Below, piece after piece: positions 18,406 through 50,335 of a stretch of DNA of 64,000 bases (its first letter is position 1; each line of letters starts with the position of its first letter). Source of the DNA: the human T2T-CHM13v2.0 reference genome, Homo sapiens. Under the pieces are notes generated by a model. It searched no databases and had not been told where the DNA came from. It was given only the letters and a program-made list of their open reading frames with translations. The stretch is from NCBI RefSeq assembly GCF_009914755.1, contig NC_060931.1, one strand, 5' to 3'. A program made the position numbers and the translations under genes.

Positions 18406-20167
18406 ATGACAGGATCAAATTCACAAATAACGATATTAACCTTAAATGTAAATGGGCTAAATGCCCCAATTAAACAACACAGAATAGCAAATTGGATAGA
18501 GTCATGACCCATCAGTGTGCTGTATTCAGGAGACCCATCTCATGTGCAAAGACGCACATAGGTTCAAGGTAAAAGGATGAAGGAAAATTTACCAAGCAAA
18601 TGGAAAGCAAAAAAGAAAAAAGGCAGGGGTTGCAATCCTAGTCTCTGACAAAACAGACTTTAAACCAACAAAGATCAAAAAAGATGAAAAAGGGCATTAC
18701 ATAATGGTAAATAGATCAGTTCAACAAGAAGAGCTAACTATCCTAAATATACATGCACCCAACACAGGAGCATCCAGATTCATAAAGCAAGTTCTTAGAC
18801 ACCTACAAAGAGACTTAGATTCCCACACATTAATAGTAGGAGATTGTAGCATCCTACTGTCAATATTAGACAGATCAATGAGACAGAAAATTAACAAAGA
18901 TATTCAGGACTGAAACTCAGCTATGGATCAAGTGGACCTAATACACATCTACAGAACTCTTCACCCCAAATCAACAGAATATACATTCTTCTCAGTGCCA
19001 CATGACACTTATTCTAAAATCAACCATATAATTGGAAGTAAAAGACCCCTCAGCAAATGCAAAAGAACTGAAATTATAACAAACAGCCACTCAAACCACA
19101 GTGTAATCAAATTAGAACTCAAGATTAAGAAACTCACTCAAAACCACATGGAAATTGAACTACCTGCTCCTGAGAGACTCCTGGGTAAATAATGAAATTA
19201 AGGTAGGAATCAAGAAGTTCTTTGAAACAATTGAGAACAAAGAGACACTGTGCCAGAATCTCTGAGACACAGCTAAAACAGTGTTAAGAGGGAAATTTAT
19301 AGCACTAAATGCCCACATCAGAAAGCTAGAAAAATCTTAAATCGACACCCTGACATACAATTAAAAGAGCTAGAGAAGCAAGAGCAAACAAAACCCAAAG
19401 CTAGCAGAAGACAAGAACAACTAAGATCAGTAGAACTGAAGGAGGTAGAGACACAAAAAAACACTCGAAGTCAATGAATCCAGGAGACTATTTTTTGAAA
19501 AAATTAATAAAATAGACCATTAGCTAGATTAATAAAGGAGAGAGAATCAAATAGACACAGTAAAAAATGATAAAGGGGATATCACCACTGACCCCACAGA
19601 AATACAGACTATCAGTGAATACTATAAACAACTCTGTGCAAATAAAATAGAAAATCTAGAAGAAATGGATAAATTCCTGGACACATACATGCTCCCAAGA
19701 CTAAACCACGAAGAAGTCAAATTCCTAAATAGACCAGTAACAAATTCTGAAATTGAGGCAGTAATTAATAGCCTACCAACCAAAAAAAGCCCAGGACAAG
19801 ATGGATTCACAGCTGAATACTACCAGAGATACAAAGAAAAGCTGGTACCATTCCTTCTGAAGCTATTCCAAACAACTGAAAAGGAGGGACCCCTCCCTAA
19901 CTCATTTTATGAGTCTAGTATCATCCTGATACCAAAACCTGGCAGAGACACAACAAAAGAATAAAACTTCAGGCCAATATCTCTGATGAACATTGATGTA
20001 AAAATCCTCAGTATGATACTGGCAAACTGAATCCAGCAGCACATCAAAAAGTTTATCCACAATGAAGAAGTCAGTTTCATCCCTGACATGCAAGGCTGGT
20101 TCAACATATGAAAATCAATCAATGTAATTCATCACATAAACAGAACAAATGACAAAAACCACATGAT
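18406..20167 (+). pseudogene. L1 ORF2 remnant: endonuclease to start of RT, truncated at the chimeric junction
   Basis: [44 protein letters not shown]; multiple stops. Confidence 0.9.
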
Positions 20168-21285
20168 CTAAAATTCATATGGAACCAAAAAGAGCCCCCA
20201 TAGCCAAAGCAAGACTAATCAAAATGAACAAATCTGGAGGCATCACACTACCTGATTTCAAATTATACTGTAAGGCCGTAGTCACCAAAACAGTGTGGTA
20301 TTGGTATAAAAATAGGCACATAGACCAATGGAACAGAATGGAGAACCCAGAAATAAATAGAAATACTTACAGCCAACTAATCTTCAACAAAGCAAACAAA
20401 AACATAAAGTGGGGAAAGGACACTCTTCAACAAATGGTGCTGGAATGATTGGCTCGCTTCATGTAGGAGAATGAAACTGAATCCTCATCTCTCACCTTAT
20501 AGAAAAATCAACTCAGGATTGTTTAAGGACTTAAACCTAGGACCAGAAACTATAAAAATTCTAGAAGATAACATTGGAAAAACCCTTCTAGACTTTGGCT
20601 TAGGCAAGAATTTCATGACCAAGAACCCAAAAGCAAATGCAATAAAACAAAGATAAATAGCTGGGACCTAATTAAACTAAAGAGCTTTTGCATGGCAAAA
20701 GGAACAGTCAGCAGACTGAATGGACAACTCACAGAGTGGGAGAATATATCTTCACAATCTGTACATCTGACAAAGTACTAATATCCTGGATCTACAATGA
20801 ACTCAAATCAGCAAGGAAAAAAAAAAGTGGGCTAAGGACATGAATAGACAATTCTCAAAAGAAGATATACAAATGGCCAACAAACATATGAAAAAATGCT
20901 CAACATTACTAATGTTCAAGGAACTGCAAATCAAAACCACCATGTGACACCACCTTACTGCTGCAAGAATAGCCATAATCAAAAAATTAAAAAAAAAACA
21001 GTAGATGTTGGTGTAGATGCAGTGATCAGGGAACACTTCTACACTGCTGGTGCAAATGTAAACTAGTATAGCCACTATGGAAAACAGTGTGGAGATTCCT
21101 TAAAGAGCTAAAAGTAGAGCTACCATTTGATCCAGAAATCCCACCACTGGTTATCTACCCAGAGGAAAAGAAGTCATTATTCGAAAAAGATACTTGCACA
21201 CACGTTTATAGCAGCACAATTTACAATAGCAAAATCGTGGAGCCAACCCAAATGCCTATCAATCAACGAGTGGATAAACTGTGGT
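20168..21285 (+). mobile_element. L1PB-type ORF2 C-terminal segment embedded in the L1PA element
   Basis: CTAAAATTCATATGGAACC, AACATAAAGTGGGGAAAGGAC and TTCATGACCAAGAACCCAAAAGCAAATGC closely match the L1PB at 42680-43525, not the host. Confidence 0.8.
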
Positions 21286-21420
21286 GTGTGTGTATATATA
21301 TATATCTATATATATATATATATATATACACATATATATATATCTATATATATATATACACATATATATATATCTATATATATATATACACACATATATA
21401 TATATCTATCTATTTATATG
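21284..21420. repeat. Compound (TA)n microsatellite with a ~28-30 bp higher-order unit
   Basis: TATATATATATACACATATATATATATC repeated about three times. Confidence 0.95.
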
Positions 21421-21651
21421 CAGGTCTAATATTCATAATCTACAAGGAACTTAAATCTACAAGAAAAAAATTCCATCAAAAAGTGGGCAAAGGATATGAA
21501 CAGACACTTCTCAAAAGAAGACACTTACATGGCTAACAAACATACGAAAAAAAGCTCAACATCACTGATCACTACAGAAATGTAAATCAAAACCACAACG
21601 AGATACCATCTCATGCCGGTCAGGATGGTGATTATTAAAAAGTCAAGAAAC

Positions 21652-21930
21652 ATCCCAGCACTTTGGGAGGCCAAGGCAGGTGGATCACCTGAGGTCAGGA
21701 GTTCGAGACCAGCCTGGCCAACATGGTGAAACCCTGTCTCTACTAAAAATACAAAAATTAGCTGGGTGTGGTGGCTGGTGCCTGTAATCCCAGCTACTCA
21801 GGAGGCTGAGGCAGGAGAATTGTTTAACCCAGGAGACAGAGGTTGCAGTGAGCCAAAATCATGCCAGTGCACTCCAGCCTGGGTGACAAGAGCAAGACTC
21901 CATCTAAAAAAAGAAAGAAAGAAAGAAAAA
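21652..21930 (+). mobile_element. 5'-truncated AluS (Sq/Sx-like) inside the L1PA
   Basis: Starts at ATCCCAGCACTTTGGGAGG; GGATCACCTGAGGTCAGGAGTTCGAGACC; (AAAG)n tail. Confidence 0.9.
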
Positions 21931-23327
21931 AGCAACAATAGATACTGGCAAGGCTGTGGAGAAATAGGAATGCTTTTACACTGTTGGTGGGAATGTAAAT
22001 TCATTCAATCATTGTGGAAGACAGTGTGGCAATTCCTCAAGGATCTATAAGAAGAAGTACCGTTTGACCCAGCAATGGAATTGCTGGGTATATACTCAAA
22101 GGATTATAAATCATTTTACTGTAAAGACACATGCACCTGTATGTTTATTGCAGCACTATTTGCAATAGCAAAGACATGGAACCAACAAAAATGCCCATCA
22201 GTGACAGACTGGATAAAGAAAATGTGATCATAAAAAGAAACGAGATCATGTCCTTTGCCAGGGACATGGGTGAAGCTGGAAGCCATCATCCTCAGCAAAC
22301 TAACACAGGAACAGAAGACCAAACACCACATGTTCTCACTCATAAGTGGGAGTTGAATAATGGGAAAACATGGACACAGGGAGGGGAACAACACACACTG
22401 GGGCCAGTTGGGGGGTTTGGGGGCAAGGGGAAGGGAGAGCATTAGGACAAATAGCTGATCCATGTGGGGCTTTAAACCTAGATAATAGGATGATAGGTGC
22501 AGCAAACCACCATGGCACACATATACCTATGTAACAAACCTACACGTTCTGCACTTGTATCCCGGAAATTAAAAAAAATAAAAAATAAAAATAACAAGAA
22601 TACTTGGTCCTCTGACATAATAGAGAATGATAACATAATGGGCAGATACACAAATGAATTGAACTTGGTGGCAGGTAAGCTGAGCTAGTTAATACGGGAT
22701 GAATTCATTTTTCATCAAAAAAGAGATCAACCACTGGTGTGAAGAAGCAGATGTTGCATTCATGAGACAGCAACTCTATGTAAGAAAACAAACTAAGAAA
22801 GACTAATCAGTTATATTACAGTTGCATTTAATATAGAAGATACCATGAATTTTTAGAGCTGCCAATAGTTGCAGTGTGTGTGTATACACACATATATATA
22901 CATACACACTATAGATAATGTATATTAAGTACATACTATTTATTCTATAGATATAATTTTTTATTGCTTTGGATTAAAAGCTGAAGAATATAAAATGCTT
23001 GTTTTCAATGAAATGTAATTGATGAAGAAAATATGGTGGGATATAAAGAAAGAGAAGTTCCTGACCTCTAGGGAGAAGATTTGATATGGCCAACATGAAG
23101 TCTTGATATAGATGTGAAGAGTGTTAAGAAGTAGGAACAATCATGAAGCTAAAAGGAAATTTTAAAACAAGATATGGAGTGGCAGAGGTGGAAGCATTGT
23201 CCATTAACAGAGATAATTCTCAGCACTTGAGATTTAGAGAAAGAAGCATTTTGAACTATGGTGAGATAATTTGTAATGTGATGTATGAATATTTTTCATG
23301 AAGAACAGGACATAGGGGCAGTAAAGG

Positions 23328-24560
23328 TTTTTAAAGCTTTATTAAGATATAAATCATGTAACATACATGCCATTATTTAAAGTATGCAATTAAATTGTTA
23401 TTAGTATAGTCATAGGGCTGCATAACAATCATCACATGAATTTTAAACATTATTGCCCCTGCCCAAAAGAAATCCCTTAGCAGTCATTAGCAGTCACTGC
23501 TCTTCCTCTCTCCTTATCACCCCTTCCCATCTTTTCCCTACCAAGCCCTAAACAATTGCTAATCTAATTTCTGTCACTATATATTTGCTTATTCTGGAAT
23601 TTCATAGCAATCAAATCATACAGTATATATTCTTTTGTTGACTGTTGTCTTTTACTTACTGTAATGTTTTAAAGGTTCATCATGTTATAGCGTGTATCAT
23701 ACTTCATTCCTTTATGTTCCCATATTTTTTTGTGTGGATTGATCACATTCTTTATTCATCCATCAGATTATGGACATTTGGATTATTTCCACTTCATTTA
23801 CTATTATAAATAATGCTTCTATGACCATTCATTTACATTTTTGTGTGAATGCATTTTTCCATTCTCTTGAATGGGTATAAGCCTAGAAGTAGAATTTTTG
23901 GGCCACAGGTATCTGTATGTTTAACACTTTGAGCATCTGCTAACATGACTTACAAAGCAGACGCAACATTTTACTTTGCCCACAGCAGTGTATGAGGCTT
24001 CCAATTTCTTCACATCCTTGTCAACACTTCTTATTGTCTGTCATTTTGATTATAGCCATCTTAGTGGATGGGTGTGAAGTGCTATCTCATTGTGGTTTTG
24101 ATTGACTTAGTAGATAAACATCTTTGAATCTGTTCATTGGTCATTTGTATATCTTCTTTGGAGCAACATTGATTCAAATATTAATACTTTTCCAGTTTTT
24201 AAGATTGGTTATTTACCTTTTTATTATTGAATTATGGAAGTCCTTATTTACTTTGGATATATAAGTCCCCTATCAAAAATATATCTGCATGTATTTTCTC
24301 CCATTGTGTGGCCTGCTTTTTTACTTTCTTGATAGTATCATTTGCATAACAAAAGTTTTATTGTTAATAATGTTCCATCTATTTTATATTTTGTCATTTG
24401 TGTTTTATTGTCATACTTAAGAAATTATTGTACAACCCTAATTTAATTATATTTAATTAACCCTAATTAAATTTAAATAAAGGATTTAATTTTGATTGCT
24501 CTTTACATACTTAGCTCATATATAGGTGTATTATTTATTTTTAATTAATTTTTTAATATG
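23328..24560 (-). mobile_element. L1MB-like 3' fragment
   Basis: AGCTTTATTAAGATATAA 3' end; TTTTGATTATAGCCATCTTAGTGG...TATCTCATTGTGGTTTTGATT. Confidence 0.8.
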
Positions 24561-24577
24561 GTCAAATTTTTTGAGTA

Positions 24578-24996
24578 TAGACAATCACAGAATGGGAGAA
24601 AATATTTGAAAAATTATGTAATCTGACAACATACTTGCATCCTGAATATATAGAGACTCTTACAACTCAATGATTAAAAAAAAAAACAATTAAAAATGGA
24701 CAAAGTATATAAGCCAATATTTCAAGAAATACATAAAAAGATGCTCAAATCAATACCAATTTGGGAAATGTAAAGCATAAGATATCAATTCATAGCCAAT
24801 ATGATGGCTGTATCAACAAGATGGACAATAGTGTTTTGGTAAGTAATTAGATCCTTCGTATGCTCCAAGTAGGAATGTAAAATGCTGTAGCTTCTTGGAG
24901 AATAGTTGGACAGTTCTTCAGAAAGATAAACCTCTATTTACCAATGGCTCAGCCATTCTACTTCTAGGCATATATCCTAGAGAAATGAAAACATGT
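24578..24996 (+). mobile_element. L1M ORF2 C-terminal fragment
   Basis: CACAGAATGGGAGAAAATATTTG...ATATCCTAGAGAAATGAAAACATG. Confidence 0.75.
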
Positions 24997-25019
24997 TGTA
25001 GTGAAGGTTTATTAGTCTA

Positions 25020-25540
25020 TTTTCCTGGGGAAATGTAAAGGAAGAAGATTAGTTGGAAAAGCCACAACTACTGTAGCTGGTTTCCAAAAGTAACTGATGT
25101 TCACCATTTCCCTCCTACACTACTCACTCTGGATTGCCACCATCCTGAGAAAATACCGCTGCTGGTCTTGGTGACTTCCCTGGTGGTGACACCTTGAGGG
25201 GTCTGAATCTTTGGTTACCATGCCCTTCTTGGTCAGTGGTTACTGCACTTGTCATTTGCCTTCACAGTTAGACAGCGGAATACTGAAAACTAGACCCACA
25301 AAGCTTAGAGTTATGGAAAAGGGAAATACAAGTTTTGTGAGTAGATTACTGGGAAGTTAGTACAGCCACATCTACTTCTGCTCTTTGTTCCTGAACCTAT
25401 GCATGCTGCTTACTGGGGACACAGCACTGTATAACAATCATTGACTAAAGGTTTCTACTGTGTCTTGGAAGTTAGATTTCTATTCTCAAAGGATAAGTTC
25501 TCCAAACTTGTGCCTCAGCTACAACTTCATTGTGCAGTTT
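25020..25540 (-). mobile_element. Ancient ERVL-internal fragment (dUTPase/3' region)
   Basis: TGAGGGGTCTGAATCTTTGG...TTCACAGTTAGACAGCGGAATACT resembles the ERVL 3' region at 56650-56740 in this window. Confidence 0.45.
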
Positions 25541-25553
25541 CATTGTTGTATAA

Positions 25554-25784
25554 CAGCTTTTCTTAACCTCAGCACTATTGACATTTTGGTCTATATGTGT
25601 ATATATAGACCAAATATATATATATATATACAGATTTTGTTATGGGACTGTTCTGTGCATTGTAGAATGTTTATCAACATTTCTGGCCTTCACCCATTAG
25701 GTGCCAGTAGTATAACCAAAAGTATCTCCAAGCATTGCCAAATGTCCCCCAGAGGGGAAAACTGCCTGTGATCGAGAAGCACTG
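25554..25784 (+). mobile_element. MER20 (hAT-Charlie) with an internal TA tract
   Basis: CTTAACCTCAGCACTATTGACATTTTGG...CATTGCCAAATGTCCCC...GAGAAGCACTG. Confidence 0.85.
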
Positions 25785-26129
25785 ATGTAGAGTTTATAAT
25801 TACATCTAGCACTTTTACAAGCAGAAATTACTTACATGCACACACAGAGCTTCTCCTGACCTTACCAGCCTGTGGGTACAAATTGTATAATGTTAAGTTT
25901 CATAACCCAAATTTCAGTAAATTTTTAACCATCTACTCATGTAAGATCCAGACCTCTGTTTTAGACCTTATTAGTGCTTCATACTTTCTAGTTTAAGAAG
26001 GGGACAACTGTGATTGGTTGGGGGTCATATCATGAGTCCTAACCAGAGATGTCTGTCACTGCCAGGCTGAAGACTTTGTCAATGTATAGTTTCCAGGTTC
26101 TCTTTTTCAACTTCATTAACTGAGGTTGC

Positions 26130-26301
26130 AACTAGAGGAAGCTGGAGACTGCATTAGCCCAGATCACTGACTTGCCTGGAGAACCTGTCTAGACCCACTA
26201 CACATTTTCTGTGAGTGAGAAACATCCATTTGCTGGGTTAAACCACTGAACATTTATAGTTGTTATGATAGTTCCGTGTAACTTAACCTATCCTGATTAA
26301 T
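26130..26301 (+). mobile_element. MLT1-type MaLR LTR 3' fragment
   Basis: GTGAGTGAGAAA...TTAAACCACTGA...CCTATCCTGATTAAT. Confidence 0.55.
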
Positions 26302-27493
26302 GGAACCTTATTACTAAATCCCCACCATACATGCAGCTACTTTTTGATGTTCTATGTTATATTCACATGCTTTCAGAAACAAATCCAGTCTTTCACAGTA
26401 TGGTGTCTACTGGTACTGCTGTTACGTCTGGAAGATATCACCTTATCACCTGAGTAGTACACAGCAGACCCTGTCATGCCAGGTTTCCATTTTTTAACCT
26501 GATACTGCTCTTATGCATTTGGTCCTGCTTCTGCTTCTGCTTCTGCACTGCCAACAGGCCCTTGAGATACCAAAAGTATTCAGTGATAAAAATGGAGGAA
26601 ATTTCTTTGTCTTCCCTTTCCACTTTTCGTTAACCAAAACAATGAGCTCATAATCCTTTGTACCCACTTTGTCTTTTCCTCTCAGTTAGGAAAATTACTC
26701 TATCTTTCCTTCCATTATTTACCTGCAGCTCTTTGTGTCCCACAAGGACAAAATCATGAGGCAATAAGGCAACAACTTCTCAGTAATTATCCAGCCACAT
26801 TCCACAATGTTTCTATCTTGTAACAACTAGGATTTTACAGCCCGGTAAAGTTTGTCTGGCTCCATTTTCATTCAGATGAATTCCTGGCTGTCTGCCTTCA
26901 GTAATTCAGCAGATATATTCAGACATTTCTGAACTTCAACAGTAAATATTATTTAGGCTTAAGATGGTAGCTTTGAGCAGGTTTGATATAAAATTTTAGA
27001 GAAAAGCATAGGCATCATCTTAAGGCCAGAAATGCTAAAAGAACGTAATTAAGGAGTGTAGACAGATTCTATAAGACAAATATCTTTGTACAGTCATAGT
27101 GATGAAAAAATGGGGTGATCTAACAAGTTAGTGGATTTATATAAGGTATTTTCCAATTATATCAGATTTATAAAATACGTGAATGTAAGTTGGAAAAATT
27201 GATAAAGAAAATCTCAAAAAGCCACACATTTGTACACATATAGTTTTAGTCATGGGTCAGTGTCAGGAAGAAAAAATTTCAAAGTAAATGGTTTTCAAAT
27301 ATATCATATGGTGATTTTAAACTTATGTTTAGAAAAAGGGGAGGAACTATTATAATACAGGACAAACCCATTCCATGTGAGAAATGGTTACCTGGTAGGT
27401 GATAAGATCTTCCAAAAGGTGACAACTATAAGACTAGGAGCAGTTGCCCTCTCTTTTCCAGGTCAGGGAAGGTTCAATTCGATAGAGACTTAC

Positions 27494-27615
27494 TTGCAGG
27501 GAAAGCATAAGTGAGAATGCATTAAGCCACTTGTGACGAATACAGAAAGGAATATTGGCAGAAGAAATAAATGGTTGCCACAGAGGCAGTCTCCGCCATT
27601 CTTCACCAGAAGAAT
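27494..27615 (-). other. Candidate 122-bp internal exon (likely non-coding transcript)
   Basis: Minus strand: CCCTTCCTTTGTCTTTTCTTTTCAG| acceptor and CAA|GTAAGT donor in apparently non-repeat sequence. Confidence 0.4.
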
Positions 27616-33349: not shown

Positions 33350-33399
33350 AGAGAGACTGCTATTAGTTTATCCAAACCTATTTCCCTTATTTCAAGTCA

Positions 33400-33705
33400 G
33401 ACAGTCAAATCATATTTTCAAGGCTTCCTTGAAGTTGAGTTCTAGCTAGTAAAATGTGGACAGAAGTGATTTATGTCATTTTCCCAACCTAACTCATAAA
33501 CACTTCCTATATAACCTTCTCCTCTCTTTTCCCTTGCTTTATTGGAAGTATATCAATACACAGGGTAACCTGTCTATATACTAAAGATAGTCTTTCCACC
33601 CCAGAGTCCTTCCTCCTCACCACAGTTTGAGTAATGAATGCACTTCTATTGCCTTAGACCACTGAGATTTCAGGGCCTCGCTGTTATAGAAGATAAACTA
33701 ATACA
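33400..33705 (+). mobile_element. MLT1-type MaLR LTR
   Basis: AAAATGTGGACAGAAGTGAT...CCACTGAGATTTCAGGG...ACTAATACA. Confidence 0.65.
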
Positions 33706-33743
33706 TTAGAATTTTAAGACTGTATATTTCTGTCAGAATTCTT

Positions 33744-33908
33744 TTTTTCAGTTATGTTTATTTTTATTTTTCTTTATTTTTTTATTTCCATAGGACTTTG
33801 GGGAACAGGTGGTTACATGGGTAAGTTCTTTAGTGGTTATTTGTGAGACTTTGGTGCACCCATCACCCAAGCAGTTTACACTGAACCCAATTTGCAGTTT
33901 TTTATTTA
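33744..33908 (-). mobile_element. Severely 5'-truncated L1PB insertion (~165 bp)
   Basis: L1PB 3' end (TTGGTGCACCCATCACC); 13-bp TSD TGTCAGAATTCTT (33731-33743; 33909-33921). Confidence 0.88.
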
Positions 33909-34324
33909 TGTCAGAATTCTTAAAGCTATAATAAAAATATGGCATGTGAAATAATTTAGAAAAGAGAATTTTTGCCACTAAGGGCGAACATATGTTTGCT
34001 GAGCATTTTGCCCTAAAATTAGATGTAGATGATAACATCAATAACTTGGGACGTAAGAGAAATAACTTATGTTCCAGTTTATCTTAGTTTCAGCAAAGAA
34101 ATTGGCCATGTCTCTCACAGATCCCTTTAAGCTCTGTACTTAATATTATAAGGGTGATGTGTAATGGACTGTGTCAACCTGAAAGGAAATGTTAGTAAAA
34201 TTCCACAAAGCTCCATTATTCACAATATCTGATTCCTCATTTTCAGTAGTAGCTTAAAGATAGATGAGATCATTATCTAATGTATAGATGATGAGAACCA
34301 GAAAGAGATAATATGATATGCCAC

Positions 34325-34600: not shown

Positions 34601-34606
34601 TTACAA

Positions 34607-35301: not shown

Positions 35302-35459
35302 CCATAAATATCTGCATCTCGCTTACAAAATATTTAATTTCCTCTAGAATTTAGAATTCTAATAGACCTAGTGGCATGTGATATGATAATAAGGAACCCA
35401 GAATACAGGGCATTTAGAAAAATGACAGCTATCTGGGCATGAAGAGAATGAGAAAGAAA

Positions 35460-35697
35460 AATTTATTGAAGATATATTATAGACCAAATGCCACACTTAT
35501 TTACTGTCCTTAATTTGCATTACTTACTTTAATGTTCACAATAACCTGTTTAGGTAGATGTTATTTCCACATTTGAAACTGAGGAAACAGACTCAGAACA
35601 TTTAAATAACTATTGTAAAAGCAAAAACTGTTTTGTTGTGAATATAGAATTCAAACCCAACTTTATTTCACTTCAAAGCCCAATCTCTTAACCACTG
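35460..35697 (-). mobile_element. MIR
   Basis: TCACAATAACCTGTTTAGGTAG...TGAGGAAACAGACTCAGA...ATTCAAACCC. Confidence 0.75.
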
Positions 35698-38600
35698 TAG
35701 AAGAGAAGATTCACAGGAAAATCGCTGTCTTCAGTTACAAAAAGAGCTGATCTCCAAAAGGAATAGGTTTCACCTGGGCCATTCCAGAGGTTCTATAGCT
35801 CAGAATAAAGAAAAGTTGTTAAACACAGGTAGATTTTAGCTCATTTTAAATAACTATCTGAATTGGTTATCCCTCAACAGAATCGACTGCCCCAGGCAGG
35901 AGGTGCTGACCAAAAAGGATAATGACAACTAAAAACAGTATTGATTATCACTGAAAAAGGATTTTCTGCATTTGGGTGAGATATTTGGTCCAGATGTTAA
36001 CTCACTCATAACATTAACATTTAGTGACTTTTTCATTATTTAGTTGAATCTTTCACTTGGACTTCCCTTCCACACCACTCTGGCATGTGATCATGGAGCC
36101 ACTAGACTTATCACAATTCAAATAATGAGACACCTACTATTTCTTGAATATTCTTGTCTTTACTTAAAGTATGTAACTTTCCAATATTTTATTTGTCTTT
36201 GAATAAAAACTTAAATTCATTTTGAAGCAGTAGGAAAACATGTTTCCCCAAAGAGTTTATGTCATTACGAGACAGCACAAAGGATCAGATAGATTTTTCT
36301 TACATTGAACTTCTTTTTTCCATTTGTTGGGTTTTAAAATATTTAAAGCTGGTGATCATGTTTTTGTATAGTTTTTGATAGTGAACCATTGCTCATTTGA
36401 CCTGGCTTCCTATTTGTTGGCCAGCCTCTCTGGTGATACTTTAATTAAAAAACTTCTTTTATGGCATGGACACCAGAATGAAATGCAATTGTGCATACCA
36501 TCTTCATAGAGAGGCCAGTGAGCTAATTAGCTCGGTCAGTATCTTGCCAGTCTTTCAGGAAATCTAGGAAACCTAAGGGGTTAAAACTCTGAAGTATAAG
36601 AAAAAATCAATTACACCAAATCAAGTACACGATACTGACTGGTATGTTTGCAACCTCCTTGTGATGATGTTCCATGATTTTTTTTTGTCTAACACAGCTG
36701 CACAAGTCTTTGGCAGATGAAGATGAGCTTTTTCCCTAGGTGGATCAGAACATGAACTTAAAAAGGTCTTTTCAACTCCTGGGGGATCACCTAGAGTCAT
36801 GTCTTACAACTATAGTGCTAAAAGCAAATATAAGAAATACATTTTTGTTAAAAGAGTTAGTGATGGATTGCCATTAGGCTGCCTGGAACACTGGTCTGGA
36901 GACTTGACCCCAGCATCCTCAGATTGTATATTTCACAGCCTTGAACCTTGTTGACATTTTCTTGTTTGACTATTTACATGTTGCTTCTTGATTGCTTCCA
37001 CTGTGCTACATAATAACATGGAAAGGAATGTAAACTTCCTTTCAGTTAAACATAGATATAAGCCATATGAAGGACATTAAGCAGCACAGATCACTCATTT
37101 GGAAAATGAGTGAGAGATTAAGCAGTACATATCTCTCACTCTCGAGTTGTAGGCCATATATTCAGATTTAAAAAGTCACCAGCATCTTGAGTTCCTAACT
37201 TCTACGGCCACTCTAAAAATCAATGGAACATGCCATAATGTTCAGGGATAGTGGCTGTTCTCTGACAGAATTGGAAGCAATTATGCTTGTATAACTGAAT
37301 ATTTCTAGAACTTAATTATTTCAATAGTAATATATGATGGCCTAAGAAGATAAGATAATTGTAGAGGCTGTAGATACCTCTGATCATTTATTATATTCCC
37401 ATCATTCAAGGTCCAGTATGTTAAAATTGTTTGCCAAGGTCACACAACTAATTATTAATACAGATTGACTTAAAAATGACACCTACATACAGCTAGCCTG
37501 AATCTTCTTCCATAATTCCATATAATTATGAGATGCTAGAGTGCAGGATTCACATGCTAGTCTTTCTATGCTTTATATATCTAGCAGGATGCCTTAAACT
37601 CTAAAAGACTGTGATATGTATGTGTCGAATTGAATAGACATCACATACTTTCCCCTGACCTAAGCTTTGTCTTCCCAACGGGCCTCCCTTAACTTCACTC
37701 TGTTCTTTGGCTGTTTGTTCCCATGAGTAAAGTTAGCCTTATAGAAAGGCACTGTTAAAATCCCAACAGAGAGTACAATGAAGCCCTTGGAGGGATTCCT
37801 CTCATTATTATTATAACATGGATTTATTAGTCTTTTAGTTAATGGAGCACAATAAATGTTGCAAGATATATAAGCCTTGCTTGAAGACTAAAATACATTA
37901 TTATTTCTGACAGGCAGTTTAGGTCAAGGTGCATGCAGGCAGTAGAAGAGTGGACCATTTATAGAAACGGTTGGGGTTTAGGTGGGGTAATAAAATAATT
38001 TATGCACAAAATGAGATACTTTTTGAGATAAAAGGGTATGAACTAACAGGTATGAACTATACTGCCTCATAAAAGAGATATATTATCATGCCAGGCAGGT
38101 ATGAGGGGATCTCAGGCCCTTGACACTACATAAAGTTTGTGTCCCAAAGGCCGCCCTAGGGAAGTGACTCATGGTTCTGAGGGCTTGAAATGCTCAGAAA
38201 AACTGATTTAGGCAATGAAAAATTTACTTAATCCACAATCTTGCCCACTTTGGATTTTCAAAGCCAGATCTCTCTTGGAGGAAAAAAAAAAACAAAAAAA
38301 CAAAAAAAAAAAACAGGTACGCTAAATAGCATAGCACCATTTTGCTTGCGTCCATAAATATAAATATCAGAGCAAACTCTATTTGAGCTTCAACCTCCAA
38401 CCTACTTGCAAATGATGTCATTATGCAGACCTAGCTTTGGCACGAAGACTTAATTAGTATTCAGTCTGACAGAAAACCATTTCATTTAATTCCACTGGCT
38501 GAGATCCAACCAGCAGTATCTATATGACAGCATACGAAACAGGCACTTAGGGTAAAAGCAGGCTTGGCATTAGTATGCTGAGCAGTGACCTGGAACGGGA

Positions 38601-38989
38601 GCAGGGACAGAGCAAGTTTGGAAGGAGCAAAGAAGCAGAGGGAGCTGTCATTCCAGTTCAAAACCCCTCTGAGTTTGTGTTTTAGATACAAAGAATGAGG
38701 TTTATTTAATACAGATTCTTAAGCCCTGTTAGTCATGCTGTCTGACAAATTTAGGAACGTAGTCATGATTAACTTTTAACCTGAAAAAATTAAAAAAAAA
38801 TCCTCCCAGGAATTTACCTGGAATGAGAATCTGATCCCACATATTAAATGTCTTATGCAATATGAACCGAAAGCTGTATGCCGTTTTTTAAAAAACATGC
38901 TAATTCTATCTCCATGAGCTGAGTATTTTGATTGAGCTAAGAAATGCCTGTGAAAAGTACTTAATTGACTTAGAGATTACAATTAGCCA

Positions 38990-39425
38990 GTGATGACATT
39001 TAGTGCTCCAGATCCATTCTCCACTCTTCTCTTTCTCATTCTATGCTGAGAGAATGACCCGTACAGACTCCACAGGACTATATCCCTAGTCCTGTGGCTT
39101 CTGGTTGGATTTTCTCAATGGGAGACACCAAAAAGAGGTCTGGAGGCTATAGGGAAGAGTGACTGTGGGTTCCTTGTCTTCTACCAAGATCCACAGTTCC
39201 TCTTAGGTGGCACTTTCTATAGAGGACTCTCTCTGAGTTATTGCTCCTGTCCGTTATCTTTTTCAGGTCTTAGGGTAGCCCCCTGATCTCAGTAAGCCTG
39301 GGATGCTGCATCATTGCATTTTCCCCCACAAACCTTGACCGTGTCTTTGAAAATGGGCCTTTATTAATATCACTTTAAATTGTCTAGCTTTAGTTTGTCA
39401 TCTGTTTTCTGCTATAACTGACAAT
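38990..39425 (+). mobile_element. LTR33-like ERVL solo LTR
   Basis: CTCCAGATCCATTCTCCAC...TGGCTTCTGGTTGG...CAATGGGAGACACC...CATCTGTTTTCTGC. Confidence 0.65.
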
Positions 39426-39849
39426 TAAAACTTCTGACATTACTGGAAAGAAGTCAGAATCATCCACAGGAAGAAAACAAAATGTAAGCAGAGAAGGCCA
39501 GGAGACTGTTGCTTCACAGGAATGGAAAGCAGTAGAATTAATTGATGAGATTATGAATGGAAAGGAGGCTCAGATATCAGAGATTGGTTTGATAATTCAT
39601 CCTCTTGAAATGTGGTCAATAATGTTTCTATTATTTCTTCATTAGTAGAGTGCATGCTTTGATGATTGTTACATAAATGAGGACAAACTTATACTTTTTA
39701 AAAAATTATGATTATAGAGTTTATGGCCATAATAGTTTTTACTGGTCAATATGAGAAGCTTTCCATAATTGTCTCACTAACATCCTTTTCAAATTCTATA
39801 TCCCAGTGTTATCATCCTTATCTGAGGTTGATACTTCAGCCATCATACA

Positions 39850-41230
39850 AGGGAGGAAAGCAAGGCACAGACACAAGTGTGTAAATAGATGTGTTGTGAG
39901 AGCTTATGGAAATCCTCTTGATTTCTTCTGTCTTCTTGGTCAAAAGGAAGCAAGGTCATCAGCTGAACATAAATATTGGGGCAGGAGGGTTGGTGTTTGA
40001 GGAGAGGGTAACTTAGGAAATAGTTGTTTGTGGGGAAATGATGAAAGGTAGCTATGAAGGGCCTACCTGAGATTCGTGGGTGGCTATCAACTGAATATGA
40101 GACCAGCCAGCATGCCTGACTTTTCTCCAGCTACTTCTCATCTGCAGCATAGAAAAGCACTGGATTTTATCAATTAAATGGAAGCAAGAAAGCAACAAAA
40201 AATTTGAGGTGAATGCAATGAGGGATTTTAATTCGGACCATATTTTCTAAATTGTTTAGAGGAGGACGTAAAAATTGAGGAAAATAAAGGGCAGCAAAAG
40301 GAGGGCAAGATTCATGGATTATAGGAACTGATGGTGTTGAAGAATTGTAGAAGTTGAGGTACTAGATAGAAGAAACTAGAAAGATAGGAAGTGGTGGATA
40401 GGGAGTAGGGTACTTAAAAAGGAGATTTGAAAAGGGAGTTGTAGTTTTTGGTAATCATGGAGTATGGGATATGACCATGAAGTTATGGCTTTGGTGGAAT
40501 GGGAAATAAATTAATTTTAGATAATTAGGGAATTAGAAGTCTGGGTTTTGGAATAATCATCTATTGGAATTTTAAACTACTAATATTTGTTACAATATGT
40601 TGTAGAAAGTGACAGTCATTAGCTAAACTCTTCAAGGATAAGTATGAGTGACACTTCCAAGGTGATATGTGGTAATAACAAGGATGGGTGGTGGTGGTAT
40701 AGTTGAACAGCAGGAGATTCAACACTTGCTGATTTTTAGCCAGAGTAGAAAGACGATGGTTTATAACCAGCAAGGAGTACATAATCCCCATGGTAGGGAG
40801 GATGTGAAAGAGAAAACAACTGTTAATTTGTAGGACTTCCAGGAAAGTCAGGTTTTAGTACAGAAGGAAGTTGAAATGGAAATACCAAAGAAAGGTGAAG
40901 AATATTTGTATTTTGCCAATGGCTGACCATGAATTTCAAAGGAAAAAGTGCATGAGCTTTAGCAGTTGGCAAGAAATGGGAAATGGGGCATAAAGAGCTT
41001 CTACAGAATTAGAGTTGGGGGTTCAGAGGTAACCTGAGAGTTGTGGGTTTCTTATGGTGACAGGAAAAAAAAAACAGGTAAAATTAGGACAATGGATCTT
41101 AGTGCTGTTGGTCTCAAGCCTATTGGGGCTGGGTTCTGGGTTGGTGAAAAGGGAGGAGTAGGCATATTTTTAGTAGCATACAGAGTTTGGGATCACATTT
41201 TACCTGCCAGAGATGTGTGGAGGGTGGAGG
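39850..41230 (-). mobile_element. Decayed L2 internal region
   Basis: GAAGCAAGGTCATCAGCTGA motif and G/A-rich L2-like sequence. Confidence 0.5.
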
Positions 41231-41344
41231 ATGAGGTGGCAGTGGTCTTACATAGATTAATACACATGGGTATATTAAATGATAATCTAATAAATTGTCA
41301 TGAAAATATATTTAAAACAGTTAATCATCATCATCATCTTACCT

Positions 41345-41752
<408 letters not shown>

Positions 41753-42218
41753 TTATTATTACTTATTTTAATTGATAAGTAAAAATGTATAAGTTTATGA
41801 TACACGACAAGATGTTCTGACATATGTATACATTGTATTATGGCTAGATCAGGCTATTTAAGATATGCATTATTTCACATACTTAATATTTTTTGTGGTG
41901 AGAAGTCTTAATATATACTCTCTTACCAGCTTTCAAATATATGAAATATTGTTAACTATACTCATTATGATGCACAATAAATCACTTGAGCTTATTCTTG
42001 TCTAATTGAAATTTTGTGTTCTTTGACCAACAACTCTTTAATTATTCCACCTCCAGTCTACAGTAACCATCATTTAAGTCTCTGTTTCTATGAGTTAAAC
42101 TGTTTTAGATTCCACACATAAGTGAAATCATGTGGCATTTGTCTATCTTTGCCTGGCTTATTTCATTTACATAACGTCCTCCAGGTTCATCTATGTTTTC
42201 TCAAATGACAGCATTTTC

Positions 42219-42527
42219 TTTTTTTTTTTTTTTTTTTTTTGTTGTTGTTGTTGAGATGGAGTCTCGCTCTGTTGCCCAAGCTGGAGTGCAGTGGCACAAT
42301 CTTGGCAACCTCGGCCTCCCGGGTTCAAGCGTTTCTCCCGCCTCAGCCTCCCAAGTAACTGAGACTACAGGTGCATGCCACGAAGCCCGGCTAATTTTTT
42401 GTATTTTTAGTAGAGGTGGGTTTTCACCGTGTTACCCAGGATGGACTCAATCTCCTGACCTCGTGATTTGCCCGCCTCGGCCTCCCAAAGTGCTGAGATT
42501 GCAGGCGAGAGCCATCGCGCCCGGGCT
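42219..42527 (-). mobile_element. AluSc8/AluY-like element in the L1PB tail
   Basis: Minus strand CACGAGGTCAGGAGATTGAG...TAACACGGTGAAA; poly-T plus (GTT)n tail; CpGs retained. Confidence 0.88.
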
Positions 42528-45500
42528 GTTTTCAGTTTTTAATTTTTTTTTATATATTTTTTTTATTTTCATAGATTATTAGGGAACAGGTTGTGTTTAT
42601 TTTCATGAGTAAATTCTTGAGTGGTGATTTGTGAGATTTTGGTGCACCCATCACCTGAGCAGTATACAATGCACCCAATTTGATTTTTTGGTTATGGCCA
42701 TTCTTGCAGGAGTAAGGTGATCTCATTGTGGTTTTGATTTGCATTTCCCTGATCATTAGTGATGTTGAGCATTTTTTCATATGTCTGTTGGCCATTTGTA
42801 TATCTTCTTTTGATAATTTTCTATTCATGTCCTTAGCCCAATTTTTGATGGGATTGTTTTTTTGTTTTTTTTTTTTTTTTGCTGATTTGAGTTTGTTGTG
42901 GATTCTAGATATTAGTCCTTTGTCAGATCTATAGATTGTGAAGATTTTCTTCCACTCTGTGGGTTGTCTGTTTACTCTGCTGATTGTTCCTTTTGCCATG
43001 CAAAAGCTCTTTAGTTTAATTAGGTCCCAGGTATTTATCTTTGTTTTTATTGCATTTGTTTTTGGGTTCTTGCTCATGAAATACTCGCTTAAGCCAGTGT
43101 CTGGAAAGGTTTTTCTGATGTCATCTAGAAGTTTTACAGTTTCAGGTCTTAGGTTTAAGTCCTTAATCCATCTTGAGTGGATTTTTGTAGAAAGGTGAGT
43201 GATGAGGATCCAGTTTCATTCTCCTACATGTAGCTAGCCAATTATTCCAGCACCATTTGTTGAAAAGGGTGTCCTTTCCCCACTTTATGTTTTTGTTTGC
43301 TTTGTCAAAGATCAGTTGGCTCTAAGTATTTGGATTTATTTCTGGGTTCTTGATTCTGTCCCATTGGTCTATATGCCTATTTTTATACCAGTACCACACT
43401 GTTTTTGTGACCATGGCCTTATAGTATAGTTTGAAATCAGGTAGTGTTATACCTTCAGATTTGTTCTTTTTGCTAAGTCTTGCTTCAGCTATGCAGGCTC
43501 TTTTTTGGTTTCATATGAATTTTAGATCATGTGGTTTTTGTCATTGGTTCTGTTTATGTGATGAATTATGTTTATTGATTTGCATATGTTGAACCAGCCT
43601 TGCATCACAGGTATGAAACTGACTTGTTTGTGGTGAATACACTTTTTGATGTGCTGCTGGATTCAGTTTGCCAGTATCTTATTGAGGATTTTCACATCAA
43701 TATTCACCAGGCATATTGGCCTGAAGTTTTCTTCTTTTGTTGTGTCTCTGCCAAGTTTTGGTATCAGGATGATGCTGGCCTCATAAAATGAGTTAGGGAG
43801 GGGTCCCTCTTTTTCAATTGTTTGCAATAGTTTTGGAAGGAATGGTACCAGCTCCTCTTTGTATCTCTGGTAGAATTCAGCTGTGAATCTGTTGGGTCCT
43901 GGGCTTTTGTTGGTTGGTAGGCTATCAATTACTGCCTCAACTTCAGAACTTGTTGGCCTATTCAGGGATTTGACTTCTTCCTGGTTTAGTCTTGGGAGGG
44001 TGTATGTGTCCAGGGATTTATGCATTTCTTCTACATTTTCTAGTTTATTTGCATCGAGATGTTTATAATATTCTCTGGTAGTAGTTTGTATTTCTCTGGG
44101 GTCAGTGGTGATAGCCTCTTTATCATTTATTATTGAGTCTATTTGACTTTTATCTCTTTTCTTCTTTATTAGTCTAGCTAGTTATCTATTTTGCTAATTT
44201 TTTCAAAAAAAAAATCTCCTGGATTCATTGACTTTTTTGAGGGGTTTTTCATGTCTCTACCTCCTTCGGTTCTGTTCTGATCTTAGTTATTTCTTGTCTT
44301 CTGAGGCTAGCCTTTGGTTTTGTTTGCTCTTGCTTCTCTAGCTCTTTTAATTGTGATGTTAGGGTGTCAATTTGAGATCTTTCTAGCTTTCTGATGTGGG
44401 CATTTAGTGCTATAAATTTCCCTCTTAACACTGTTTTAGCTGTGTCCAGACATTCTGGTATGTTGTCTCTTTGTTCTCATTGGTTTCGAAGAATTTCTTG
44501 ATTTCTGAGTTAATTTCATTATTTACGCAGGAGCCACTCAGGAGCAGTTTGTTCAATTTTCATGTGGTTGTGTGGTTTTGAGTGAGTTTCTTAATCTTGA
44601 GCTCTAATTTGATTGCACTGTGGTCTGAGGAACTGTTTGTTATAATTTCAGATGTTTTTTGTATTTGCTGGGAAGTGTTTTACTTCCAATTATATGGTTG
44701 ATTTTAGAATAAGTGTCATGTGGCACTGAGAAGAATGTATATTCTGTAGATTTGGGGTGGAGAGTTCTGTAGATGTCTATTAGGACCACTTGATCCCAAG
44801 CTGAGTTTAAGTCCTGAATATCCTTGTTAATTTTCCATCTTGTTGATCTGTCTAATATTGAAAGTAGGGTGTTAAAGTCTCCCACTATTATTGTGTGGGA
44901 GTCTAAGTCTTTTTGTAGGTCTGTAAGAACTTGTTTTATGAATATGGATGCTCCCGTATTGGGTGTATATATATATTTAGGAGAGTAAGCTCTTCTTGTT
45001 GACCTGATCTGTTTATCATTATGTAATGCTCTTCTTTGTCTTTTTTGATCTTTGTTGCTTTAAAGTCTGTTTTGTCAGAGACTAGAGTTGCAACCCCTGC
45101 TAGTGTGTTGCCTCCAGATTTGATCTTTTGCTTAGTCTTGCTTTGGTTATGTGGGCTGTTTTTTGGTTCCATATAAATTTTAGGATTGTTTTTGCTAATT
45201 CTGTGAAAAATGATGATGGCGTTTGGATGGGAATTGCACTGAATTTATAGATTGCTTTTGGCAGTATGGTCATTTTCACAATATTAATTCTACTCATCCA
45301 TGAGCATGGGATGTGTTTCCCTTTGTTTGTGTCATCTGTGATTTCTTTCAGCAGTGTTTTATATTTTTCCTTGTAGAGGTCTTTCACGTCCTTGTATTTC
45401 TAAGTACTTTATTTCCAAGTACTTTATTTTGCTTGCAGCTATTGTAAAAGAGGTTGAGTTCCTGATTTGTTTCTCAGCTTGGTCACTGTTGGTGTATAGC

Positions 45501-50329: not shown

Positions 50330-50335
50330 AGAGAG

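What the first reader, a model, noticed from the sequence alone, without database searches (positions are those of the whole stretch)
18623..45100. Two inverted L1s of different lineages share an identical chimeric junction (~2.4 kb inverted duplication)
Seen: the junction GACAAAAACCACATGAT|CTAAAATTCATATG, which fuses the L1PA RT start to L1PB post-RT sequence and skips the RT core, occurs at 20167/8 (+) and again at 43526/5 (-). Arms 18623-20990 and 45100-42680 are collinear in inverse orientation. They share stretches such as [44 protein letters not shown] and GGAGGTAGAGAC, but differ by roughly a tenth of bases by eye, so the event is old. Both parent L1s keep their outer TSDs, so the ~21.7 kb spacer has no net inversion. 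Inference: local sequence exchange, for example a staggered-break inversion that later reverted plus gene conversion, or replicative template switching. This could be a fossil of a toggling inversion.
Basis: partly seen in the sequence, partly recalled or inferred. Interest (0 to 1): 0.8.

Follow-up and report, generated by a model that had tools for sequence, protein, structure and literature searches.

The report
Neighbouring inverted L1s share copied mosaic
Two old L1 retrotransposons lying head to head 22 kb apart on human chromosome 7 carry the same 2.4-kb patchwork segment, most likely because a piece of one was copied into a break in the other about 25-50 million years ago; it is a neat fossil of DNA repair, not a new kind of element.

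Summary
The 31-base junction occurs exactly twice in the window. It occurs nowhere else in the 3.1-Gb assembly at up to 3 mismatches. The arms, 18623-20990 (+) and 45100-42682 (-), are collinear and 89.1% identical.

The junction is a true chimera of two L1 lineages. It joins ORF2p residue 595/596 to residue 845, out of frame.

Both host L1s are full length and keep their own target-site duplications. So the spacer shows no net inversion.

Arm A runs on without a break into its X flank on the left and its Y flank on the right. Arm B is broken at both ends: it follows an 83-bp repeat of post-junction sequence and replaces about 1.3 kb of its host.

The X halves are sisters on a tree (100/99). 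The Y halves form a star, but sisterhood is not rejected.

Best reading: a one-off local copy from the + locus into the - locus, joined with 0-4 bp of microhomology. It came soon after a Y-lineage patch entered the + L1.

A toggling inversion is neither needed nor supported. A mobilised recombinant subfamily is refuted. Interest is low to moderate.

The parts
15889..15904 (+). 5' target-site duplication of L1 'X' (AAAAATAACAAGAATA)
   Evidence: Exact 16-mer, repeated at 22587-22602.
15905..22586 (+). Full-length L1 'X' (L1PA-like; name recalled, not tested). Carries a foreign Y-lineage patch and an Alu.
   Evidence: Genome hits to 14800-17600 start at query 1089-1179, i.e. about 15,890-15,980. 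Lineage painting. Poly(A) and TSD.
18623..20990 (+). Arm A, the inferred donor copy. X part 18623-20167 (ORF2p 72-595); Y part 20168-20990 (ORF2p 845 to about 1125).
   Evidence: ORF2p residues. Its X part is continuous with its X flank on the left and its Y part with its Y flank on the right.
20151..20181 (+). Chimeric X|Y junction, copy 1. The joint lies between 20167 and 20168.
20168..21285 (+). Y-lineage patch inside X (ORF2p 845 to about 1223). It replaces about 1.35 kb of X and runs about 295 bp beyond the arm.
   Evidence: Painting: Y score exceeds X score in every window from 20100 to 21449. Y copies align through to 21278-21332. The X loss is computed from X_L005 and X_L010 coordinates.
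21293..21419 (.). (TA)n/(TG)n microsatellite that hides the 3' joint of the patch (Y to X).
   Evidence: Tandem Repeats Finder; sequence.
21422..22586 (+). Native 3' part of X. It restarts at about ORF2p residue 1048, so about 0.5 kb of L1 co-ordinates is present twice. An Alu lies at about 21647-21954.
22587..22602 (+). 3' target-site duplication of X.
42202..42210 (-). 3' target-site duplication of L1 'Y' (TGTCATTTG on the - strand). It lies beyond an Alu that sits in Y's tail.
   Evidence: The two flanks read on as one older L1.
42526..42681 (-). Native 3' terminal part of Y (about 135 bp) plus its poly(A).
   Evidence: 27 of 29 Y copies match window 42675-42526..
42682..45100 (-). Arm B, the inferred inserted copy. 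X part 45100-43526; Y part 43525-42682.
   Evidence: It is discontinuous with its host at both ends. Both end joints are unique in the genome.
43512..43542 (-). Chimeric X|Y junction, copy 2.
45101..45183 (-). Last 83 bp of native Y before the insert. This same L1 stretch is also present inside both arms, so it is a third copy.
   Evidence: 89% identity to 20168-20250. Three-way listing.
45101..50281 (-). Native 5' part of the full-length L1 'Y' (L1PB-like; name recalled). It includes its own RT core (45936-45184).
   Evidence: Painting. Genome hits to 47300-50300(-) start at query 19-36. In register across the junction position.
50282..50290 (-). 5' target-site duplication of Y.

Best explanation
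**Setting.** Two full-length L1s of different lineages inserted independently, tail to tail, about 20 kb apart.
- X is L1PA-like and occupies 15905-22586 on the + strand.
- Y is L1PB-like and occupies 50281 to about 42526 on the - strand.

**Step 1 (inferred).** After X had been resident for a while, a 1.35-kb stretch of it (ORF2p 597 to about 1047) was replaced. The replacement was 1.1 kb of Y-lineage sequence (ORF2p 845 to about 1223), placed out of register. This created the X|Y junction. The source of this patch is unresolved, and the neighbouring Y is not favoured as the donor.

**Step 2 (structure shown, mechanism inferred).** At about the same time, a break or gap opened in the neighbouring Y. 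It removed about 1.3 kb, from 84 bp after the junction-equivalent position to about 135 bp before Y's end.
- The gap was filled by copying 2.37 kb from the mosaic X 22 kb away, in L1-sense orientation and therefore inverted in the genome.
- Copying started at a 4-bp microhomology (CAAA) in an A-rich tract and ran back across the X|Y junction into X sequence.
- It was end-joined with 0-1 bp of microhomology.
- This is microhomology-mediated templated repair or template switching (MMBIR/FoSTeS-like, or one-ended strand invasion plus end joining). It is not in-register gene conversion.

**Outcome.** The result was a 2.4-kb inverted duplication. It has since decayed to 89% identity and has no evident function.
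For: **Locality**
- The junction 31-mer is found at 2 of 2 places in the assembly, both here, at up to 3 mismatches, with 0 control hits.
- The other two joints of arm B are each found once.

**True chimera**
- The 29 best X-lineage copies are 83-87% identical to the pre-junction part. They are only 70-77% identical to the post-junction part, in the 27 of 29 that reach it.
- The 29 best Y-lineage copies are 87-90% identical after the junction and 65-77% before it, in 24 of 29.

**Painting of the two loci**
- + locus: X, then Y, then X.
- - locus: Y, then X, then Y, then the Y 3' end.

**Direction A to B**
- Arm A's X part runs on into X, with ORF2 readable from residue 1.
- Arm A's Y part runs on for a further 295 bp of Y lineage.
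- Arm B starts abruptly after native Y's own copy of the first 83 post-junction bases.
- Arm B ends at a 527-571-bp jump to Y's 3' end.

**No net rearrangement**
- Both L1s keep their target-site duplications.

**Shared descent of the X halves**
- A and B are sisters at 100/99 support, with a stem of 0.018 and tips of 0.068 and 0.067.
- Among 1373 sites, 19 are shared-derived, against 66 private to A and 64 private to B.
- Three marker words that carry shared variants occur 71, 27 and 22 times in the genome. No place other than A and B holds two of them.

**Timing**
- The X and Y halves have the same A-B distance, 0.117 and 0.120.
- The Y halves share only 3 derived sites of 770. So the patch entered X shortly before it was copied.

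**Microhomologies**
- 1-2 bp at the X|Y junction, 0-1 bp at 45101|45100 and 4 bp at the jump to Y's 3' end.
Against: - **Y halves not sisters.** On their own tree the Y halves are not sisters, and B pairs weakly with an unrelated copy. The AU test does not reject sisterhood (p = 0.188), but it does not show it either.
- **Raw identity.** A-B identity (89%) is no higher than A against the best unrelated copies (87-90%).
- **Limited reference sample.** Reference copies are only the top 29 of 40 scored candidates, out of 19,496 and 13,214 found. They were chosen with arm A as the query. Closer relatives could therefore exist unseen.
- **Direction.** It rests on parsimony (two events rather than three) and on a modest divergence excess of native Y. 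That excess is 7.47 +/- 0.75% vs 5.3 +/- 0.8% from the column majority, and a tip length of 0.099 vs a reference median of 0.061. This is about 2 to 2.5 standard errors.
- **DNA or RNA template.** The sequence cannot separate them. Both arm ends abut A-rich tracts in the donor, at background rates of 4.8% and 7.9%. That would suit priming by the L1 reverse transcriptase.
- **Hidden joint.** The 3' joint of the patch in X is hidden by a microsatellite.
- **No outgroup.** No outgroup genome could be examined.
Confidence: 0.55

Rival explanations
1. RNA-templated version of the same transfer. A transcript of the mosaic full-length X was reverse transcribed at a break in the neighbouring Y. This would be an endonuclease-independent, NCLI-type L1 insertion: 5'- and 3'-truncated, without poly(A) or TSD, and with a target deletion.
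For: - Arm B has the four NCLI hallmarks listed by Sen et al. 2007 (PMC1920257, passages read). It is 3'-truncated at about ORF2p residue 1125 with no poly(A) of its own. It has no TSD. It carries a target deletion of about 1.3 kb. It has short microhomologies at its joints.
- The 3' end of the copied stretch lies in an A-rich tract, and the 5' end lies just after one.
- X is full length with its 5' end intact, so it could have been transcribed.
- The Y patch inside X has the same NCLI-like anatomy.
Against: - An RNA-borne insert could land anywhere in the genome. Landing 22 kb from its source, in the nearest L1 of the patch's own lineage, fits a DNA template found by proximity and homology better.
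- The A-tract adjacency was noticed after the fact, in an A-rich element.
- Nothing in the sequence marks an RNA stage: no splice and no tail.
Confidence: 0.18
2. Reverse order (B first). A 1.5-kb piece of X was first inserted into Y, flanked by the 83-bp duplication. The cause could be template switching during Y's own insertion or break repair. The + locus was then converted from the - locus through the new homology. A later 0.55-kb deletion trimmed Y.
For: - The 83-bp repeat flanking the X piece in Y looks like the overlap left by a template jump out of Y and back.
- The Y halves share almost no derived sites. That fits a transfer at the time Y arrived.
- Reverse-transcriptase template switching is an accepted source of L1 chimeras (PMC13174262, passages read).
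Against: - It needs three events instead of two.
- It requires arm B's Y half to be native Y. Yet native Y looks older than the arms: 7.47% vs 5.35%, a 3' terminal identity of 80.6% vs 87.2% between references, and a tip of 0.099 against a reference maximum of 0.080.
- If Y were that much older than the copy, about 18 shared-derived sites would be expected in the Y halves. Three are seen.
Confidence: 0.12
3. Fossil of a toggling inversion. A staggered-break inversion between X and Y duplicated 1545 bp of X and 83 bp of Y. Homologous exchange in the new inverted repeats then flipped the spacer back. A further conversion and a deletion gave today's structure.
For: - On paper, a staggered inversion followed by crossover within the duplicated X piece gives exactly Y[..+83] X[a..J] Y[J'..], which is the core of the - locus.
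- Staggered breaks with inverted duplications are documented for 17 of 29 Drosophila inversions (PMC1885836, abstract and passages read).
- At birth the arms would have been a perfect 2.4-kb inverted repeat, able to drive inversion.
Against: - After that toggle the + locus would be an intact X. A third event is needed to give it the junction, and a fourth for the deletion in Y.
- A single staggered inversion predicts swapped order of the two duplicated pieces, not an identical joint.
- Both L1s keep their own TSDs, so no net inversion exists.
- It also needs arm B's Y half to be native Y, which meets the same divergence objection as the B-first rival.
Confidence: 0.05
4. A trans-mobilised recombinant L1. 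Both arms would be independent retrotransposed copies of an internally deleted chimeric master.
For: The arms are no more alike than unrelated copies of the same lineages.
Against: - Only 2 junction copies exist in 3.1 Gb, and they lie 23 kb apart.
- The fusion lacks the RT core and is out of frame.
- Arm A is part of a full-length X with its own TSD and an X 3' end.
- Arm B has no tail or TSD of its own.
Confidence: 0.01

Closest known systems
Microhomology-mediated templated insertion / template switching (MMBIR, FoSTeS; Hastings 2009 and Lee 2007, recalled, not read here)
   Same: - The template lies nearby, 22 kb away.
- The copied stretch is inverted.
- The joints have 0-4 bp of microhomology.
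- Recipient sequence is lost at the site, and the donor is left unchanged.
   Different: - Those models were drawn from recent pathogenic rearrangements, whereas this is an event tens of millions of years old.
- Donor and recipient here are both L1s that share about 0.8 kb of partial homology, which may have guided the choice of template.
- A replicative origin cannot be tested.
Ectopic gene conversion between L1 elements (Tremblay et al. 2000, recalled; locus NCLI34 in Sen et al. 2007, PMC1920257, passage read)
   Same: - The transfer is non-reciprocal, from one L1 into another on the same chromosome.
- The result is a mosaic L1.
   Different: - Both tract ends are out of register with the host L1. 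One is shifted by about 2.4 kb and the other skips about 0.55 kb.
- The tract is longer than what it replaces.
- Classical conversion ends inside aligned homology.
Endonuclease-independent (non-classical) L1 insertion, NCLI (Sen et al. 2007, PMC1920257)
   Same: - Both the Y patch in X and arm B in Y are truncated at the 5' and 3' ends.
- Both lack a tail and a TSD.
- Both come with a target deletion of about 1.3 kb.
- An AT-rich simple repeat sits at one joint.
   Different: - An RNA intermediate is unproven.
- The donor of arm B is a specific neighbouring element, not a free L1 RNA.
Staggered-break inversions with inverted duplications (Ranz et al. 2007, PMC1885836)
   Same: Inverted duplicates lie at the two ends of a segment, and two pieces from the two break regions are duplicated.
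   Different: - There is no net inversion.
- The two pieces are in the same order with an identical joint at both ends, which that model does not predict.
Twin priming (Ostertag and Kazazian 2001, recalled; described in PMC13174262)
   Same: L1 sequence is present in both orientations.
   Different: - Twin priming gives adjacent, largely non-overlapping pieces inside one insertion with one TSD.
- Here the copies overlap fully, are 21.7 kb apart, and sit in two L1s that each have their own TSD.

Membership tests
Trans-mobilised recombinant L1 subfamily | The diagnostic junction is dispersed at many unlinked sites | tested here: not met
   2 of 2 genome matches are the two arms, at up to 3 mismatches, with 0 control hits.
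Trans-mobilised recombinant L1 subfamily | Each copy ends in its own poly(A) and is flanked by its own TSD | tested here: not met
   Arm B has neither. Arm A is internal to a full-length X.
Classical (in-register) ectopic gene conversion | Non-reciprocal replacement with the donor unchanged | tested here: inconclusive
   The donor-like copy is continuous and the recipient-like copy is interrupted. The pre-event states are not available.
Classical (in-register) ectopic gene conversion | Tract ends lie within aligned homology, with no length change | tested here: not met
   The left joint links Y at +83 to X at ORF2p residue 72. The right joint skips 527-571 bp. A 2.42-kb tract replaces about 1.3 kb.
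Microhomology-mediated templated insertion (MMBIR/FoSTeS-like) | The inserted stretch is a copy of a nearby template | tested here: met
   The template lies 21.7 kb away. The X halves are sisters at 100/99. The junction is shared and unique.
Microhomology-mediated templated insertion (MMBIR/FoSTeS-like) | Joints are blunt or have a few bases of microhomology | tested here: met
   0-1 bp at 45101|45100 and 4 bp (CAAA) at the right joint.
Microhomology-mediated templated insertion (MMBIR/FoSTeS-like) | Arises during replication or break-induced synthesis | not testable with these tools
   The sequence leaves no trace of this.
Endonuclease-independent L1 insertion (NCLI) | 3' truncation, no poly(A) and no TSD | tested here: met
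   Arm B ends at about ORF2p residue 1125 and joins Y's 3' end directly. The flanks are not duplicated.
Endonuclease-independent L1 insertion (NCLI) | An RNA intermediate copied by the L1 reverse transcriptase | not testable with these tools
   The only hint is that both arm ends lie at A-rich tracts.
Staggered-break inversion | The segment between the duplicates is inverted relative to the ancestor | tested here: not met
   Each L1 keeps both of its TSDs in place, so there is no net inversion. Past transient states are not testable.
Staggered-break inversion | The two duplicated pieces lie in swapped order at the two ends, with no shared joint | tested here: not met
   Order and joint are identical in both arms.
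Twin priming | Inverted and direct pieces are adjacent within one insertion and one TSD | tested here: not met
   The spacer is 21,691 bp and there are two separate TSD pairs.
Segmental duplication (usual cut-off of at least 1 kb and at least 90% identity; recalled) | At least 90% identity over at least 1 kb | tested here: not met
   89.1% over 2355 aligned bases, just below the cut-off.

The most novel reading that the evidence does not exclude
Both patches are products of L1's own reverse transcriptase acting as a repair enzyme close to home. First, a Y-lineage RNA patched a break in X. Then the transcript of the now-mosaic X, still near its own locus, patched a break in the neighbouring Y 22 kb away. 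Priming would have been on an internal A-tract. This would be a natural example of cis-proximal, RNA-templated break repair between neighbouring retrotransposons.
Probability: 0.15. Interest if true: 0.55.

Novelty: new member of a known kind. Interest (0 to 1): 0.3.

Why it matters
- **A fully resolved repair scar.** Donor, recipient, all four joints and a relative time-line can be read from a single genome. This shows that neighbouring inverted repeats can trade sequence by out-of-register templated repair, not only by in-register conversion or crossover.
- **Risk for L1 classification and dating.** Mosaic L1s can arise after insertion, so an 'L1PA/L1PB recombinant' need not reflect RNA-level recombination or a new subfamily.
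- **A possible driver of inversion at birth.** The event created a perfect 2.4-kb inverted repeat around 21.7 kb of DNA, which could have driven inversion polymorphism in early anthropoids. That is testable in other primates.
- **No functional consequence is evident.** No gene is annotated in the window.

Tried and rejected
- **Extended reference loci.** I used 3 short extensions instead. As a result the 3' part of X is painted against only 3-7 X copies.
- **Relatives of native Y.** The loci could not be cut out. Four 0.9-kb pieces showed only that native Y's relatives and the Y reference set are one lineage: 87-89% identity to the arms and 85-93% to the references.
- **Marker words.** The aim was to learn whether the shared X variants mark a sub-subfamily. 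Each word recurs 20-69 times elsewhere, but never two together. I compared the lists by eye.
- **Three copies of the 83-bp stretch.** Comparing them for shared variants gave none; the stretch is too short to be informative.
- **Step in A-B divergence along the arm.** A step would have revealed two events of different age. None was seen: 87-91% in all 15 windows.
- **Literature.** Searches were about mechanisms, not this locus. I cannot say whether the locus has been described.
- **Assembly artefact.** Rejected, because the arms differ at 256 aligned bases and 22 indels.
- **Subfamily names.** They could not be checked because no repeat library is held.

Full report
**1. Observation**

The 31-base junction is present exactly twice in the window, at 20151-20181 (+) and 43512-43542 (-). 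No shuffle produced a match.

Sixteen of the 22 inverted-repeat pairs in 17000-47000 are collinear pieces of one inverted duplication. BLAST joins them as 18623-20991 against 45100-42679.

A global alignment gives 2368 vs 2419 bp, with 2099 of 2355 aligned bases identical (89.1%) and 22 gap openings. K2P is 0.118, and all fifteen 300-column windows fall between 87 and 91%.

**2. The junction is a real fusion of two L1 lineages and removes the RT core**

Against solved human ORF2p structures, the last pre-junction residues align to 551-595. The post-junction reading frame aligns from residue 850, five codons after the joint. Residues about 597-844 are therefore missing. The two frames are offset by one base, so the pre-junction frame meets TAA two codons after M595.

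I fetched two sets of 29 genomic copies, each the best of only 40 scored candidates, out of 19,496 and 13,214 found.
- The 29 relatives of the pre-junction part ('X' lineage) are 83-87% identical to it. Their own post-junction regions are only 70-77% identical to the arm's, in the 27 of 29 that reach it.
- The 29 relatives of the post-junction part ('Y' lineage) are 87-90% identical to it. They are 65-77% identical before the junction, in 24 of 29.

From recall, X's 3' end looks L1PA-like and Y's looks L1PB-like. No repeat library was available to test the names.

**3. Anatomy of the two loci**

Window-by-window painting against the two reference sets, genome hits that mark the 5' ends and direct reading give the following.

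The + locus contains, in order:
- TSD AAAAATAACAAGAATA at 15889-15904;
- X sequence from its canonical 5' end to 20167;
- Y-lineage sequence at 20168 to about 21285;
- a (TA)n/(TG)n microsatellite at 21293-21419;
- X sequence again at 21422-22586, with an Alu at about 21647-21954;
- the same 16-mer TSD at 22587-22602.

The - locus, read on the - strand, contains:
- TSD core TGTCATTTG at 50290-50282;
- Y sequence from 50281 to 45101, including Y's own RT core;
- X sequence from 45100 to 43526;
- Y sequence from 43525 to 42682;
- Y's last ~135 bp and its poly(A), down to about 42526;
- an Alu;
- the TSD core again at 42210-42202.

Y's two flanks read on as a single older L1. Each L1 is therefore full length and sits in its original insertion site, and the 21,691-bp spacer has no net inversion.

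**4. Asymmetry: A is continuous, B is an insert**

At the left arm end, A's reading frame runs without a break from ORF2p residue 1 through residue 72, where the arm starts. X-lineage copies are continuous there too. At the right arm end, A continues for about 295 bp of further Y-lineage sequence.

In B, the arm begins directly after native Y's own copy of the first 83 post-junction bases, 45183-45101. That stretch is 89% identical to 20168-20250, so it exists three times in the window. B's right end jumps 527-571 bp, measured in 4 Y copies, to Y's 3' terminal piece across a 4-bp CAAA microhomology.

In Y co-ordinates, the 2.42-kb arm replaces about 1.27-1.33 kb. In X, the 1.1-kb Y patch replaces about 1.34-1.35 kb (coordinates).

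The joints are blunt or nearly so. Microhomology is 1-2 bp at the X|Y junction and 0-1 bp at 45101|45100.

All three joints that could be tested are unique to this locus in the 3.1-Gb assembly. The shared junction is found twice, and each of the two B-specific joints once, at up to 3 mismatches and with no control hits.

**5. Descent and timing**

In the X part, arms A and B are sisters with 100/99 support among 29 of 29 reference copies. The stem is 0.018 and the tips are 0.068 and 0.067.

I counted only columns where at least 85% of reference copies agree:

| Part | Sites | Shared-derived | Private to A | Private to B | Differing differently |
|---|---|---|---|---|---|
| X | 1373 | 19 | 66 | 64 | 5 |
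| Y | 770 | 3 | 36 | 37 | 2 |

The three shared sites in the Y part are all transitions that some reference copies also carry.

Three words that carry shared X variants occur 71 (control 14), 27 and 22 times in the genome. No place other than A and B holds two of them (lists compared by eye). The shared stem is therefore private to this pair.

The Y tree is a star. A and B are not sisters there, but holding them together is not rejected (AU p = 0.188).

My reading of the order of events is this.
- X had been resident for roughly a fifth of its age before the copy was made.
- The Y patch had been in X only briefly. The contrast of 3 of 770 against 19 of 1373 gives a one-sided binomial p of about 0.02 by my own arithmetic.
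- Both halves of the arm were duplicated at one time, since their K2P values are 0.117 and 0.120.

**6. Where did the Y patch come from?**

Native Y looks older than the arm's Y half.
- It differs from the column majority at 7.47 +/- 0.75% of 1219 sites (20 of 29 references usable). The arms differ at 5.30% and 5.35%, while the references' own rates are similar in both regions (3.8% vs 3.5-3.7%).
- Its tip on a tree is 0.099, against a reference median of 0.061 and a maximum of 0.080.
- Its 3' terminal piece is 80.6% identical to the references, against 87.2% among the references.

This is about 2 to 2.5 standard errors. It is suggestive that the neighbour was not the donor, and it argues against models in which arm B's Y half is native Y. 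It is not conclusive.

**7. Mechanism**

The most economical history has two events close in time.

First, a Y-lineage segment patched a gap in the resident X, out of register at both ends. This created the junction.

Second, a gap in the neighbouring Y was filled by copying 2.37 kb from the mosaic X.
- Copying started at a CAAA microhomology in an A-rich tract and ran back over the junction.
- It ended just after another A-rich tract.
- End joining left the 83-bp overlap.

This is microhomology-mediated templated repair or template switching. It is not in-register gene conversion, which fails on both tract ends.

Whether the template was DNA or RNA cannot be decided. Proximity and shared Y homology favour DNA. 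The NCLI-like anatomy (Sen et al. 2007, PMC1920257, passages read) and the A-tracts at both ends keep the RNA version alive. Those A-tracts have background frequencies of 4.8% and 7.9% and were noticed after the fact.

**8. Rivals**

- **B first.** This needs a third event, and it needs arm B's Y half to be native Y.
- **Toggling inversion.** On paper, a staggered inversion plus crossover in the duplicated X piece reproduces the core of the - locus. But it restores an intact X, so further events are required. A single staggered inversion (Ranz et al. 2007, PMC1885836, passages read) predicts swapped order rather than a shared joint.
- **Mobilised recombinant subfamily.** This is refuted for this assembly.
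- **Assembly artefact.** This is excluded by 256 substitutions and 22 indels between the arms.

**9. Limits**

- No outgroup genome was available, and no repeat library.
- The reference copies are a small, query-biased sample.
- The 3' part of X was painted against few copies.
- The 3' joint of the patch is hidden by a microsatellite.
- The literature searches were about mechanisms only.

**10. Verdict**

The direction and the templated-repair mechanism are moderately supported. The inversion-toggle idea is not supported.

This is a well-preserved single instance of a known class of event, with no evident function.

Noticed in passing
21293-21419; 50336-50480; 55709-55814: Similar (TA)n/(TG)n microsatellites occur three times. 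Two sit at the same L1 ORF2 position, the stretch coding WIKKMWYIY-like residues: one in the Y patch of X, the other in the older L1 next to Y. This suggests the L1 site is prone to microsatellite birth.
   Followed up: partly
50291-54497 and 41824-42201 (- strand): Y inserted into an older, more diverged L1. That L1's two halves flank Y and read on across Y's TSD.
   Followed up: partly
about 21647-21954, and the arm end at 20990 / 42682: The Alu in X's native 3' part sits at the same A-rich ORF2 tract (about residue 1125) where the copied arm ends. That tract seems to be a favoured site for breaks or priming.
   Followed up: partly
17847-17941 and 17952-18046: A 95-bp direct repeat at 75% identity lies inside X upstream of ORF2, probably within ORF1.
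   Followed up: no
33745-33910: An isolated L1 3'-end fragment is 78% identical to Y's 3' terminal piece. It lies about 90 bp from the RefSeq 'silencer' at 33454-33654.
   Followed up: no
42227-42524, 41456-41724, 21652-21931, 3043-3339, 51296-51599, 865-1166: Six Alu copies are 66-87% identical to one another. One lies in Y's poly(A) tail, between Y and its 3' TSD.
   Followed up: no
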